Shown piece by piece: positions 7,033-63,268 of a stretch of DNA of 64,000 nt (the first letter of the stretch is position 1; each line of letters starts with the position of its first letter). Position numbers and translations under genes: made by a program. This DNA comes from Octopus vulgaris (lineage: Eukaryota), in the NCBI GenBank assembly GCA_951406725.2, contig OX597829.1, positions 16,864,001 to 16,928,000 of the forward strand, in the 5' to 3' direction. The notes under the pieces were generated by a model that searched no databases, was not told the origin of the DNA, and saw only the letters and a program-made list of their open reading frames with translations.

Positions 7033-7075
7033 GTCTGAAAGTTTTCGTCATGCATCCTGTAACCTCTTCAGCGAC
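7033..7075 (-). ncRNA. Type-I hammerhead ribozyme-like motif (slightly decayed)
   Basis: Minus strand GTCG-CTGAAGA-G-GTTA..TGAC-GAAA-ACTT-TC-AGAC. Confidence 0.6.
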
Positions 7076-7169
7076 TCTCCATCTCACGTGTGTCCACATG
7101 TTCTGTTATTCCGCTTTGTTCTGTGGTGTGTATATTATCTGCGCATGTGTTTGCATCTGTATGTCTGTA

Positions 7170-7570
7170 TATCTGTCTATGTATGTATGTATGTATGTAT
7201 GTATGTATGTATGTATGTATGTATGTATGTATGTATGTATGTATGTATGTATCTATGTATCTATCTATCTATCTATCTATCTATCTATCTATCTATCTAT
7301 CTATCTATCTATATATATATATATATATATTTATATATATATCTGTCTGTCTGTCTATCTGTCTATCTGTCTGACTGTTTGTCTGTCTGTCTGTCTATCT
7401 ATCTATCTATCTATCTATCTTTTCTATCTATCTATCTATCTATCTATCTATCTATCTATCTATCTATCTATCTATCTATCTATCTATCTATCTATCTGTC
7501 TGTCTGTCTGTCTATCTATCTATCTATCTATCTATCTATCTATCTATATATTTATCTATCTATCTAGCTA
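7170..7570. repeat. (TATG)n/(TATC)n/(TCTG)n microsatellite
   Basis: Directly visible. Confidence 0.95.
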
Positions 7571-8009
7571 GCTAGCTAGTGTTTGTGTACTTTTTATGTA
7601 TGTGTGTGTGAGCGTATGTCTGTATATGTATGCACCTCTGTCTCCTTGTCTGTGCATGTCTGTGTTTGTGTTTTGCAACTATGCACCATGTTTGTATGTA
7701 TGGATGTGGATCTCTATATGTGTGGATCCGTGTCTCCATATGTGTCCTTGTGTGGAGTAAACAGTGTATGTATATATGGTCATGTGTTTCAGTCTCCATT
7801 TGTTCTTATAACCTATGTACCTATCCGTCTGTATGTTGATCTGTTTATTTTCATATCCATATGCTTATATACATGTGCATACACACATACACACACACAC
7901 ACACACACATACACACACACACACATACATATATCTATCTACATAACAACTCCCTAACTATTCTACTCTACCTGTGTAAACTGTGGGTATGGAGGTATGA
8001 TATCTACTA

Positions 8010-8290
8010 TGTATATTTCCTATTTAATATTGGGGAAGTTTCATTTATAAGGACGTACGCTCGTATTTGTCTGAGTGTTGGGTCCTTTGGGTGCTTGGAT
8101 AAGATGCGGATGTCAAGTTGACCCAAGCTGCCTCCATGCTGGTCCTTGGCATGTTGGTAGAGTATGGAGGACTGTTTTTCGTCGTCATATTGTCTTAGAT
8201 GTTCATTTAGTCGTTCCGCAATGCTCCTAGATGTCTCCTCTATGTACATCATGTTCATGTCTTTACACTTTCTATGCATCTTATGCTGTA
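8010..8290 (-). mobile_element. GIY-YIG endonuclease fragment, probably a PLE 3' end
   Basis: RKCK..MYIEETSRSIAERLNEH..SILYQH..HGG..TLRQI..LNRK fits the GIY-YIG YIGET-R-ER-EH pattern. Confidence 0.75.
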
Positions 8291-8484
8291 AACTACATTT
8301 CGAGTTCTACACTTCGAGTGCCAGGGCTAATCCTACATACCATGCAGTTATCAATGGTGTATATGGTATTCTCAAAGGGGTACGTCCTACACACACACTC
8401 ACACACACACACACACACACACACACACACACACACACACACACACATATATATATATATATATATATAAATATATAATATATA

Positions 8485-9628
8485 CAAGGGTTGGACAAAA
8501 TACTGGAAACACCTAGCAACATAGCATCATAATTTTGAAATATCTATAAAACCGTCAAAAGCTTGTTTATTTTTTATGTTTTTTCATTTATTATTAGTGT
8601 TACTTAATATGTTTTGCTAAAATTGCTGTTTCTTTTCAGATATCATCAGAAAAAGGTAATTAAAATTCATTAAAATGACAGATCTATCGGACTTTCAAAG
8701 AGGTCAAATTGTTGGTGCTCATATGGCAGGCGCACGCGTAAAGAAAACAGCCAAAATGTTTGGTGTATCATGAAGAACTGTCTCGAAAGTAATGACAGCC
8801 TTTGAGAAAGAGGGGAAAACCTCCTCGTCGAAACAAAACTCCGGAAGAAAACCAAAACTTTCAAATAGGGACTGTTGGACTCTTACTTGAATTGTTAGAA
8901 AGAATCACAAAAGTACAGCTCCCAAAATTACTGCAGTGCTTAATGACCACCTCGAGAAACCAGTTTTCATAAAAACTGTTCGCCGGGAGCTTCACAAAGC
9001 CGGATTTCACCGGAGGGTGGCAATCAGAAAACCACTACTTCCAAAAACAAACATTGCAAAGCGTTTAGAGTGGAGTAAAAACCTACAGAATTGGTCCATA
9101 TGCGATCTGTGATGATCGGGGGGGGGGGGGGCTATATCTTGGAAATCCGCCGGCCCAATGGTTTCCCTTCATGGCAAAATTAATAGTCAAGACGTTTTAA
9201 GCATTTTATCTTATCAAATTCATCCTATGGTGGCGGAACTGTTTCGGAGGGAAGCGCAATCTTTCAGGATGATAATGCACCAATTCACACAGCTAAAGTT
9301 GTTACTGAATGGCACGAGGAACATTCTAGTTAAGTTGAACATCTTATATAGCCACCACAGTTCCCAGATCTCAATATTATTGAACATTTATGGTGCATTT
9401 TCGAAAAACAAGTAAAGAGTCGATATCCCCCACCATCATCACTACAAGAACTGGAGACTATTTTAGGTGAAGAATGGACAAGAATTACTTTGGAAACTAT
9501 TCAAACTTTGTACGAGTCCATACCTTGTGGAATTCAAGCTGTAATTTCTGCTAAAGGCGGTCCTACCCCATATTACAATAAATTTGTTTGAAATTTTAGG
9601 GTGTTTTCATTATTCTGTCCAACCCCTG
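8485..9628 (+). mobile_element. Tc1-family DNA transposon with pseudogenised transposase
   Basis: TIRs CA(A/G)GGGTTGGACA.AATA.., TA flanks; ATG at 8675 gives MTDLSDFQRGQIVG..SGRKPKLS..FQDDNAPIH..PDLNIIEHLW; stops and an internal deletion near 9100. Confidence 0.93.
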
Positions 9629-9710
9629 TATATATATATATATGTGTGTGCGTGCGTGTGTGTCTAAATGTAAAATCCAGGGATCGAAGTGTGGGTCAAT
9701 AGTGATTTAA

Positions 9711-60269: not shown

Positions 60270-61220
60270 GCAGATTGTCCTCAGTGGACGATGTCTAGTT
60301 GGTTAATGTGTCGTCAATAGGGTATCTACGATTCTGAGTCATACAACAGAGTAGTAAGAATGGCAGCTTTATAAACCTGTCCTTTTGTGTCAAGTTTGAT
60401 GCCCCTTTCATTCCATAGGCGAGTTTGCCAATGCGTTGGTTGCCTATGCAAGGCAGTTGACGATTTCATCATCAAGGGAAACGCTCAAATTCTCTTTACT
60501 ATTAAGATATGTAAATGACCTCTATTAATCTAGGTTTTTCCCATCAACCTGTATTGGAATTCCAGGAAACCTGTGAACCGATGACCTCTGCTTGATACCT
60601 CGAATTTGTTTAGGAGTAGGGCAAGGTTGGTGGATTACTGCCGTCTTCTTTATGCTGATGGTCAATCCAAAGGCTTTACATGCAGCAGAAAACCAGTCTA
60701 GAAGTTCCTGAACTTCTTCTAAAAAGATCACTACTAGTGCAGCATCATCTGCAAAATGTAGATCATTAATGATACTGGTGCGTAGCAGTGTTCTGGCTTT
60801 GAATCGCTGATGATTGAATAGTCTACTACTTGTTCGAAACTGTAATTTGGTACCACTTTTTATGTCATCAAAAGCATACCTTAGTATCACAGAAAAATGC
60901 AAACAAAATAGGGGCCACAACACAATCTTGTTTTGTGCCGATTGTAACGTCGAAGGAAGCCGAAGATCCCCCTCCGGACATGACAGCTGCCTTCATTTCC
61001 TCATGAAAGGAGATGATAACATTCAACATCTTGTCAGATATACCAAGCTTTATCAGAACTTTCCATAGCGCTTGACGGTTAACAGTGTTGAAGGCCTTAG
61101 TAAGGTCAAAGAATATCAAGAACAACTCTTGATTTTTCTTACGTACCTTCTCTATGACCTGTCGGAGGGAAAAGATCATGTCGATAGTGTCACTACCACT
61201 GCGAAATCCGCACTGTGATT
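60270..61220 (-). mobile_element. Decayed RTE (BovB-like) reverse transcriptase
   Basis: SQCGFRS..TIDMIFSLRQ, FFDLTKAFNTV, GTKQDCVVAPILF, LHFADDAAL, FGLTISIKKT. Confidence 0.9.
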
Positions 61221-62488
61221 ATTTGATGGGTCATTTCAATTAAGAGCTTTTTTTCTAAGAAACGGTGATATAAATAAAAATATCAAAAATTAGAAGGCTT
61301 AAATGTCGTATTATGCAAAATCGAAAAAAATCTTAAATCAAAATAAATATTAGTTTAAAAGGAAAAGCATACGTGGCCCACCAAATTTCAGGTTATGTGC
61401 CTAGAGTAGACAGGATTATTATTACTATTATTATTACTATTATTATTATTATTATTATTATTATTATTATTATTATTATTATTATTATTATTATTATTAT
61501 TATTATTATTATTATTATTATTATTATTATTATTATTATTTTATTATTATTATTATTATTATTATTATTATTATTATTATTATTATTATTATTATTATTA
61601 TTATTATTATTATTATTAATAAAAATAATATACATACATACATACATACATACGTCCATACGTCCATATGCACACATGCATTCATACATACATACATACA
61701 TACATACATACATACATATATACACACACACATACATACATACATACATATATACATACATACATACATACGTACATACATACACACATATATACACCAT
61801 ACATACAAACATACATACATACATATCTGCATAAATACTTACCCGCATACATACATACTTCATAGAAAAATACATATACATACGGTAGCATTGCTTTAAT
61901 TCTCATCTCAACACATGAATGCATCCACATGTTACGTTGGGAATACACACACGTGGTCGCGCGCGCGCGCGAAAACAGACTCACAGATACACGTATACAA
62001 AGCATAAACAGCAATGAAGCGCACGCACTCATGTACCAACGGGGCATACATGCACACTACATGAATTAATTTTTTTAAAGCACAGACGCACACGCGTCGC
62101 GCACGCGTACACACCGCACACATGCAGACACAAACTCACACACACACACACACACACACACACACACACACACACACACACACGCACGCACACACATACA
62201 CACGTCAACTGCTTCAGACATTCACAGAACTAAGCAGCCGACTTGATTTAAAACAAAGAGCCCAGCTACTTTTTAGTGACAAGCTAGGATTTTGCAAAGG
62301 GGAACAAAAATAAAGTAATCCCAAAGGGGTCGTACATGCACAATGACACAAATACATACATACTCACATAGTCATAAGTCTCTACAAGTCGTAGAGCCGG
62401 TTACTAGGTTTTTATAGCTTATGAGTATAGGAGTGCAACTGGGAAGAGCGTCAAACAAAGAAATGCTTTATCGACAAACTTATTTACC

Positions 62489-62637
62489 TATTTCTTTACT
62501 ACCCACAAGGGGCTAAACATAGAGGGGACAAACAAGGACAGACAAACGGATTAAGTCGATTATATCGACCCCAGTGCATAACTGGAACTTATTTAATCGA
62601 CCCCGAAAGGATGAGAGGCAAAGTCGACCTCGGCGGA
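62489..62637 (-). mobile_element. SINE family A, 3' part
   Basis: Reverse-complement consensus. Confidence 0.85.
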
Positions 62638-62664
62638 GTGAACATCAACAGGGGCTTCATATAT

Positions 62665-62935
62665 TCCGAGTTCAGTCCCACTGTGTGACACCTTGGAAAA
62701 AGTGTCGTCTACAATAGCCTCGGACTGACCAAAGCCTTGAGAGTTGTTTTGGCGGACGGACACAGATAGAAGAAGTTCATTCTATATGTACGATATATGT
62801 CCGTCTACCAAATCCACTCTCAGTGCTTTATGCGGCCCGAGGCTATCTTAGAAAACACTTGCCCAAGGTGCCAAGCAGTGGGGCTGAATTCGGAACCATG
62901 TGATTAGTGGACGTATACTTCTTACCACACAGCAA
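62665..62935. repeat. Two SINE B 5' halves in inverted orientation
   Basis: Plus arm 62665-62762, minus arm 62798-62935, both stopping at GACGGA-CA. Confidence 0.8.
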
Positions 62936-62999
62936 CACCTTTTTATCATTTGCCGTTGCTAGTTGGTCCCCACTATGTCTCAAGAATCACTGGGGGTAT

Positions 63000-63268
63000 T
63001 TACAGTTCTATATTTAAGAGATGCGGAATTATTTACATTATTTATATTCGACGGATATTTGTCCTCATCTTGTTTGTGATTAACACAACGTTTGGGCAGA
63101 TATACCGTCCAGCCTTCTTCAGGTGTCTTGGGGAAACTTCGAACCTGGGTCCTCATTCTTAAGGTATTTTTCGATGTTGTTATTATTATTGTTGTTGTTG
63201 TTGTTCAGGTCACTGCTTGGAATCTTGGGGTTAGTAGCCCGCGCTCTTAACCACTACGCCATATGCTC
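63000..63268 (-). mobile_element. tRNA-headed hammerhead-tailed element, copy 3
   Basis: Minus strand GAGCATATGGCGTAGTGGTTAAGAGCGCGGGCTACTAACCC.., (AAC/AAT)n, GACAC-CTGAAGA-A-GGCTGG..TCTGCC-CAAA-CG-TT-GTGTT. Confidence 0.82.

What the first reader, a model, noticed from the sequence alone, without database searches (positions are those of the whole stretch)
7033..63128. High local diversity of hammerhead ribozymes: about six repeat types in 64 kb
Seen: type-I HHR cores at 7.05 kb (-), 11.26/51.57/63.1 kb, 14.55/30.9/31.06 kb (-), 16.3 kb (both strands), 24.03 kb (+) and 55.15 kb (-). Most have a palindromic helix III (ACGT, ACATATGT, ACACGTGT, AATATT), lie in or near microsatellites, and several sit in inverted arrangements. 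Four PLE coding remnants are in the same window. Established: minimal PLE hammerheads with palindromic helix III are thought to cleave as dimers. Inference: this genome hosts a large, diverse set of PLE-mobilised non-autonomous ribozyme RNAs, including non-canonical cores that strict CUGANGA searches would miss.
Basis: partly seen in the sequence, partly recalled or inferred. Interest (0 to 1): 0.72.

Follow-up and report, generated by a model that had tools for sequence, protein, structure and literature searches.

The report
Octopus repeat with swapped hammerhead core
This octopus-like DNA holds several mostly broken copies of small RNA motifs of a kind known from Penelope jumping genes and predicted to cut themselves, plus one very abundant 200-base repeat whose motif has the conserved C-G core pair swapped to G-C, likely a natural variant, though its cutting is untested.

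Summary
The hammerhead-like cores are at the stated places, but most are dead copies: 3 of 11 named cores pass a descriptor built on the published Penelope (PLE) minimal-hammerhead consensus (shuffles: mean 0.10, 0 of 200 reach 3). They fall into four lineages plus one doubtful singleton; 16.36 and 24.02 are relatives with 5 of 16 compensatory pairs. Many such families per genome, the extra nucleotide, palindromic helix III and opposite-strand pairs are already described (Cervera 2014). The new part is 55.16 kb: a roughly 200-bp dispersed family with thousands of copies or more, whose type-I core has G3:C8 instead of C3:G8. No reversion to C3 or G8 reaches 3% in four runs from three organisms, and helix I is 7 Watson-Crick pairs in the family. 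I found only engineered G3:C8 cores in print, but two key papers were unavailable. Cleavage, circular RNA and the mobilising PLE are untested. The inverted arrangements are private to single copies and supply no dimer partner; microsatellite proximity is not significant; I support three PLE coding remnants, not four. The scan noted a G3:C8-type motif in another genome before (e1-7353390, unchecked).

The parts
54979..55170 (-). Copy of a roughly 205-bp dispersed high-copy repeat family with the G3:C8 hammerhead at its 5' end (most family copies carry about 16 more bases beyond 55170 that this copy lacks)
   Evidence: summed depth jumps from 51-60 on the flanks to 2-5 million; loose ends at 54978-54980 and 55170
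55120..55170 (-). Type-I minimal hammerhead: core GUGAACA at 55163-55157 (G3:C8), extra G, 5-bp helix II, GAAA, palindrome AATATT, predicted cut between 55127 and 55126, 7-bp helix I
   Evidence: helix I in the family
55171..55247 (-). Inverted duplicate of the element's own 55043-55119, starting where helix I ends; private to this copy or rare
   Evidence: 97.6% over 82 nt for 55166-55247; only few opposite-strand joints
16355..16481 (+). Canonical-core type-I hammerhead with long helix II (core at 16360, predicted cut after 16432) and its downstream repeat
16225..16346 (-). Inverted duplicate of the 16.36 element; core and palindrome intact, helix I 5' strand missing
24014..24148 (+). Diverged relative of 16.36 (68-69% alike); core at 24024, G10.1 changed, palindrome ACACGTGT, predicted cut after 24097
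11204..11325 (+). Canonical minimal-hammerhead family, copy 1; 3-nt deletion at helix III
51520..52098 (+). Same family, copy 2; split by a SINE (51605-52020) with a 16-bp duplication (51589-51604 and 52021-52036, 15 of 16 alike); the right half keeps GAAA, palindrome and helix I strand intact
63049..63174 (-). Same family, copy 3; G12 changed to C
14439..14593 (-). U6 family, copy 1 (core CUGUAUA)
30952..31107 (-). U6 family, copy 2 (core CUGUAGA, G10.1 changed)
30799..30921 (-). U6 family, 5'-truncated copy in partial tandem behind copy 2; starts at G8
7032..7075 (-). Doubtful single hammerhead-like core, about 0.9 kb 3' of the GIY-YIG remnant on the same strand; fails the descriptor
42159..43447 (+). 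Decayed PLE-type RT to GIY-YIG coding remnant with stops and frame breaks
   Evidence: E 2e-88 to P0001; P0001 and P0002 carry RVT_1 then a weak C-terminal GIY-YIG
8010..8311 (-). GIY-YIG endonuclease remnant, likely PLE
   Evidence: GIY_YIG_2 E=0.018, below cut-off; score 0.95 to eukaryotic clusters in which 17-51% of members carry GIY-YIG
59171..59285 (+). Short possible GIY-YIG remnant, weak
   Evidence: E=0.014; one search gave no support

Best explanation
These motifs are likely hammerheads from the end repeats of Penelope-like elements, scattered as short, mostly broken single copies, and one abundant 200-bp family carries a swapped G3:C8 core pair that is predicted to keep the ribozyme fold and would cut only weakly, as a dimer or with protein help. 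Shown: the anatomy (type-I order, extra nucleotide, G10.1-C11.1, palindromic helix III), the excess over shuffles, compensatory changes between 16.36 and 24.02, and that G3 and C8 are the family state in three organisms. Inferred: the repeats were copied by a PLE reverse transcriptase from uncut RNA (the whole core sits inside the inserted copy); fold-backs arose when the new strand primed on itself at helix I; two transcripts or a partial tandem pair through the palindrome to complete helix III.
For: Descriptor 3 vs 0.10 in shuffles, 0 of 200; the 192-nt element alone 0 of 100,000 shuffles. 5 of 16 pairs change on both sides between 16.36 and 24.02, including the palindrome centre; 2 of 500 shuffles, slid controls 0-1; the only C>G and G>C changes at 3% or more are at 55145 and 55095, so no reversion at 55163 or 55158; 98-99.8% of family depth has the base at 55165 that makes helix I fully Watson-Crick; the common helix I change at 55124 (14-42%) keeps a U-G pair; the common changes inside the motif otherwise lie in loop II (55145, 55147). 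The features match the consensus in Fig. S3 of PMC4209133. The engineered C3G/G8C double change partly restores cleavage in a PLE hammerhead, which is protein-assisted, and uncut RNA is what gets inserted (PMC11167929 passages). Inverted 5'-truncated copies are typical of PLE insertions (PMC8557442 passages). PLE coding remnants lie in the window.
Against: 8 of 11 copies fail the descriptor. No Rfam hammerhead match. The descriptor was written after seeing the sites, and shuffles destroy repeats. Within the G3:C8 family there is no two-sided covariation, and the lack of common variants in the 13 core positions is expected by chance (P=0.34). Helix II positions decay at CpG sites in 2-8% of depth. 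The 192-nt element is no more folded than shuffles (z=0.80) and its best fold does not form helix I. No passing core lies next to a PLE reading frame, and no autonomous partner was found. The covariation rests on two independent sequences. Six variant rows were not shown.
Confidence: 0.62

Rival explanations
1. The G3:C8 and U6 motifs descend from hammerheads but are catalytically dead; the families spread as ordinary SINE-like passengers and the core is kept only by common descent.
For: HHR cleavage was not needed for PLE insertion in vitro (PMC11167929); core invariance in the family is not significant (P=0.34); an A6 change lowers activity (A6C below 0.1 per min, PMC3088659 section 8); both U6 copies carry a second lesion.
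Against: A two-base swap that restores the 3:8 pair, with all other conserved positions intact, is hard to get without selection for the fold at some time; helix I variants keep pairing.
Confidence: 0.22
2. The 55-kb family is a non-autonomous DNA element (MITE or Helitron type) and its hammerhead look is a chance product of a terminal hairpin.
For: Short, dispersed, very high copy, AT-rich flanks, a 5-bp GC-rich hairpin near one end; no Rfam match; no PLE partner found.
Against: 0 of 100,000 element shuffles and 0 of 200 window shuffles give such a motif. By eye I saw no terminal inverted repeat or fixed Helitron end in the window copy and the loose ends. An imperfect 13-15-bp direct repeat flanks this copy (54967-54980 and about 55246-55260), which would suit a retro-insertion.
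Confidence: 0.08
3. The families are non-LTR retrozymes: tandem units cut into monomers that circularise and are re-inserted.
For: Size of 150-205 bp and type-I cores fit (PMC7229834 passages); solo monomers of retrozymes exist (bioRxiv 2026.07.22.740005 passages); family sequence is in a run guessed to be RNA.
Against: No tandem unit with a hammerhead in the window apart from one partial tandem; the best-supported loose ends at both family ends are low-agreement AT-rich sequence, not the other end of the element; element ends do not coincide with the cut site; cores are minimal, without recognisable loop I-II contacts.
Confidence: 0.08

Closest known systems
Minimal type-I hammerheads of metazoan Penelope-like elements (Cervera and de la Pena 2014, PMC4209133)
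   Same: Type-I order, unpaired nucleotide after A9, G10.1-C11.1, palindromic 15-16 region, short helix I, many families per genome, mostly single copies, some opposite-strand pairs, natural 3:8 covariation (U3-A8).
   Different: The 55-kb family has G3:C8. None of the Fig. S3 cores that I could read as text has G3 or U6, and no cephalopod is listed. The 16.36/24.02 lineage has a 12-bp helix II in a 54-nt arm, no extra nucleotide and an 8-nt palindrome.
Engineered C3G/G8C hammerheads (Anolis Poseidon PAc, PMC11167929; G3-C8 variant mentioned in PMC3884650)
   Same: Same swapped pair; partial activity was shown for the engineered form.
   Different: Here it is the natural state of a high-copy family; activity is untested.
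Natural core variants (Perreault 2011, PMC3088659)
   Same: Natural 3:8 covariation and a natural position-6 variant.
   Different: That section reports U3-A8 and A6C, not G3-C8 or A6U.
Non-LTR retrozymes (PMC7229834; bioRxiv 10.64898/2026.07.22.740005)
   Same: Short non-coding repeats with type-I hammerheads, proposed to derive from and be moved by PLEs.
   Different: Defined by tandem units with canonical or complete hammerheads and circular RNA; here copies are dispersed monomers and circles are untested.

Membership tests
PLE minimal type-I hammerhead | Core N3-U-G-A-N-N8-A with a 3:8 Watson-Crick pair, GAAA, U-H cut site | tested here: met
   Met by 55163 (G3:C8), 16360, 16346, 24024 and 7071; not met by the other 6 of 11 copies as they stand
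PLE minimal type-I hammerhead | Helices I and II, G10.1-C11.1, usually an extra nucleotide after A9 | tested here: met
   3 of 11 pass with at most one deviation; 16.36 and 24.02 lack the extra nucleotide; covariation
PLE minimal type-I hammerhead | Palindromic 15.1-16.1 segment allowing a dimer | tested here: met
   Perfect in 7 of 11 copies; centre changes on both sides between 16.35 and 24.02
PLE minimal type-I hammerhead | Location in the end repeat of a PLE with RT and GIY-YIG frame | tested here: inconclusive
   Only the doubtful 7.07 core lies 3' of a GIY-YIG remnant (0.9 kb); no whole genome held; collection scans found no relatives
PLE minimal type-I hammerhead | Self-cleavage as a dimer | not testable with these tools
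   No raw RNA reads offered; contigs cannot show ends
Rfam hammerhead families | Match to a curated covariance model | tested here: not met
   None at 3 sites scanned alone to E 5; none in the 150 rows shown
Non-LTR retrozyme | Head-to-tail tandem units each with a complete hammerhead | tested here: not met
   (window); loose ends for the 55-kb family; rare arrays elsewhere are not excluded
Non-LTR retrozyme | Monomeric linear and circular RNA | not testable with these tools
   Only contigs of a run guessed to be RNA
MITE or Helitron-type DNA element (55-kb family) | Terminal inverted repeats, or TC and CTRR ends (recalled definitions) | tested here: inconclusive
   Not seen by eye in the window copy and in the loose ends; no alignment of many full copies was possible

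The most novel reading that the evidence does not exclude
An octopus SINE-scale repeat family, with thousands to tens of thousands of copies, carries an active natural G3:C8 hammerhead: the core swap known from lab rescue experiments is used in nature, is invisible to standard CUGANGA and Rfam searches, and marks an unclassified class of PLE-mobilised elements. A second family with U6 would extend the tolerated core further.
Probability: 0.25. Interest if true: 0.72.

Novelty: new variant of a known kind. Interest (0 to 1): 0.45.

Why it matters
The diversity itself is expected for a PLE-rich animal genome. The G3:C8 family matters because genome surveys use C3:G8 or U3:A8 descriptors, so a family this abundant would be missed, and hammerhead counts in animals may be too low. 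It gives a short, directly testable RNA for two open questions: whether PLE-type hammerheads must cut for the element to spread, and how far the core can vary in nature. It may also help classify some of the many unclassified octopus SINE families (893 among recently active insertions in PMC13282606, Table 1).

Tried and rejected
No whole genome is held, so no genome-wide scan was possible. Rfam gave only miRNA-like matches to microsatellites and fold-backs plus a 5S copy. Pattern scans for the 55-kb family found 0 in metagenome, genome and viral contigs; a gapped pattern found 1 locus, L001, rejected as chance because it is GC-rich and lacks helix I and the palindrome; the 51.57 family found 0 in genome contigs. 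The reading frame at 32548-32862 as a fourth PLE remnant: Pfam gave nothing relevant and the deep search was swamped by the His-Thr repeat from a CA microsatellite, so it is undecided. The Atlas search of 59209-59340 was uninformative. Microsatellite association: not significant. Inverted arrangement as dimer partner: rejected from the sequence, since each strand has one sense core, and at 16.3 kb the antisense arm would pair over it. Minimum-energy co-folds of two copies form the palindromic helix III for 24.02 and 63.12 but not for 55.16; this is weak either way. Other strict CUGANGA sites listed did not pass the descriptor. Selection on the core within the family: not shown. Runs with small shares that I did not lay are not used. 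No tRNA genes.
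Full report
Setting. The window is repeat-rich animal DNA, 21% microsatellite. The only named protein hit of a retroelement remnant is from Octopus bimaculoides, so I call it octopus-like; no whole genome is held. Hammerhead position numbers follow the usual convention, which I recall and which the papers below use.

Check of the observation. All 11 named cores are present. A descriptor based on the consensus in Fig. S3 of PMC4209133 (any Watson-Crick 3:8 pair, optional extra nucleotide, G10.1-C11.1, helix II of at least 4 pairs, palindromic 15.1-16.1, U-H, helix I of at least 3 pairs) finds 1 site with no deviation (55163 minus) and 3 with at most one core deviation and one palindrome mismatch (16360, 24024, 55163). 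In 200 local dinucleotide shuffles the means were 0.00 and 0.10, and none reached the observed counts. An earlier descriptor without the G10.1-C11.1 rule was less decisive: 0-2 hits in six modes, and 3-19 of 100 shuffles reached the count in the four modes that had hits. Both were written after I had seen the sites. The other 8 copies are broken in the ways listed under the observation check. Rfam does not see them (3 sites scanned alone, 150 of 472 rows shown for the window).

Lineages. (A) 11.26, 51.57, 63.12: 84-88% alike, each with a different lesion, so the shared state is a canonical minimal hammerhead. The 51.57 copy is split by a SINE with a 16-bp duplication, and its right half at 52021 onward is intact. 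(B) 14.56, 31.07, 30.92: both full copies have U at position 6 and one further lesion; 30.92 is a 5'-truncated partial tandem that starts at G8. Two copies are thin evidence that U6 is the family state. (C) 16.36 and 24.02: 68-69% alike; 5 of 16 pairs change on both sides, 4 in helix II and 1 at the palindrome centre; 2 of 500 shuffles reach this and slid controls give 0-1. (D) 55.16, below. (E) 7.07 is single, has a mismatched first pair of helix I and no palindrome; it lies 0.9 kb 3' of a GIY-YIG remnant, where a PLE end repeat would be, so I leave it as doubtful.

The G3:C8 family. I laid contigs of 4 of the 24 runs listed on 54860-55360 at 80% likeness: three probable DNA runs of organisms A, B and E and one run guessed to be RNA. 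Summed depth rises from 51-60 on the flanks (X1, X14) to 2-5 million over 54979-55165. The tool warns that this is no copy number; the ratio is 45,000-78,000 and, divided by 31 for contig overlap, 1,500-2,500, so I say thousands or more. Loose ends place the family ends at 54978-54980 and about 16 bases beyond 55170, followed by low-agreement AT-rich sequence, so most copies are dispersed monomers (24 loose-end rows shown, 877 not). By the per-run tallies, the only C>G change at 3% or more is 55145 and the only G>C change is 55095, so neither G3 (55163) nor C8 (55158) reverts at that level. Six variant rows were not shown and could hide other changes there, and a subfamily clipped near the end of the alignment could be missed. 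At 55165, 98-99.8% of depth has the base that makes helix I seven Watson-Crick pairs, so helix I does not depend on this copy's fold-back. The change at 55124 (14-42%) keeps a U-G pair; 55145 and 55147 lie in loop II; CpG sites in helix II change in 2-8%. From 20 of the 40 rows shown, 15 sites are common variants; none is in the 13 core positions, which chance gives with P=0.34, so selection within the family is not shown. None of 100,000 shuffles of the element gives such a motif. The RNA-guess run holds 1,678 family contigs and none on the flanks; this shows family sequence, not this locus, and gives no strand or ends. In organism E one record appears to cover both flanks at the same depth (51.2), which suggests an empty site; the joint itself was not among the rows shown. 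An imperfect 13-15-bp direct repeat flanks the copy.

Inverted arrangements. At 55 kb the inverted arm begins where helix I ends, which suggests self-priming of the new strand on helix I (inference). Opposite-strand joints at this place occur in a few contigs at depth 52-332, so they are rare. At 16.3 kb the inverted copy lacks helix I. In both, a transcript has one sense core, so the inversion supplies no dimer partner; only the 31.07/30.92 partial tandem could pair two palindromes in cis.

PLE coding remnants. 42159-43447 matches an RT to GIY-YIG protein at E 2e-88. 8010-8311 is GIY-YIG-like (one unnamed homologue). 59171-59285 is weak. I could not confirm a fourth. No passing core lies next to any of them.

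Mechanism. Most likely these are end-repeat hammerheads of several PLE lineages and their non-coding derivatives, copied from uncut RNA and then decaying. In the Anolis PLE the hammerhead cuts only with protein, the C3G/G8C double change partly restores cutting, and cutting is not needed for insertion (PMC11167929, passages). Minimal PLE hammerheads show no cutting as monomers and little as dimers (PMC4209133). So the G3:C8 motif would be weak and conditional at best. Against a strong structural role, the element as a whole is no more folded than shuffles (z=0.80). I put 0.62 on this reading, 0.22 on dead passengers, and 0.08 each on a DNA element with a chance motif and on retrozymes.

What is known. 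PMC4209133 (main text parts 1-3 of 4, the third being methods and references; supplement 2 parts 1-2 of 3, where figures are only partly legible as text) already reports thousands of such motifs in several families per genome, the extra nucleotide, palindromes, opposite-strand pairs and U3-A8. PMC7229834 (passages) gives 16 families in a coral. PMC3088659 (section 8 and passages) reports natural U3-A8 and A6C. PMC8557442 (passages) describes inverted truncated copies and microsatellite bias. PMC6765202 (section 11 part 2 and passages) reviews dimer cleavage. bioRxiv 2026.07.22.740005 (part 1 of 5 and passages; supplements closed) links retrozymes to PLEs and does not contain the word octopus. 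PMC13282606 (parts 1-2 of 3) lists PLE and many unclassified SINE families in O. vulgaris; the parts I read do not mention ribozymes. PMC3884650 and PMC10085705 were seen as passages. Searches for natural G3:C8 and for hammerheads in octopus returned only engineered cases or nothing. Lunse 2017 and Hammann 2012 were not held and may report such variants, so 'unreported' is about 0.6 likely. An earlier scan note (e1-7353390) describes a G3:C8 core with an extra inserted base behind a PLE RT in another genome; I did not test it.

Verdict. The finding is real but mostly a known phenomenon in decayed form. The part worth following is a high-copy family with a natural G3:C8 core: a new variant of a known kind, interest 0.45.

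Noticed in passing
window 51589-52036: A SINE dimer inserted into the hammerhead of the 51.57 copy with a 16-bp target duplication that spans helix II and GAAA.
   Followed up: yes
window 23177-23295 (+): A full-length 5S rRNA-like copy (80.7 bits, above the Rfam cut-off); solitary, so possibly a pseudogene or SINE head.
   Followed up: no
window 8894-9588 (+): Tc1/mariner transposase remnant (HTH_Tnp_Tc3_2, E 5e-15; weak DDE_3).
   Followed up: no
window 60528-61218 (-), 5895-6116 (+), 21804-22093 and 59342-59631: LINE-type RT remnants; the last two stretches are 95% complementary copies of one element.
   Followed up: no
window 20483-20851, 25559-25925, 51654-52021 and about 20 other places: A very common SINE-like repeat, often with a 184-bp internal tandem duplication; a second SINE-like family has about 12 copies.
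   Followed up: no
window 54860-54961 and 55251-55360, run X14: One record at equal depth on both flanks suggests that organism E lacks the insertion at the orthologous site.
   Followed up: partly
window 1405-3139: A 1.7-kb TGTA tetranucleotide array (434 copies).
   Followed up: no
window 16347-16359 and 14570-14585: The 16.36 element and the U6 family share a short pyrimidine-rich stretch upstream of the core; chance or distant kinship is untested.
   Followed up: no
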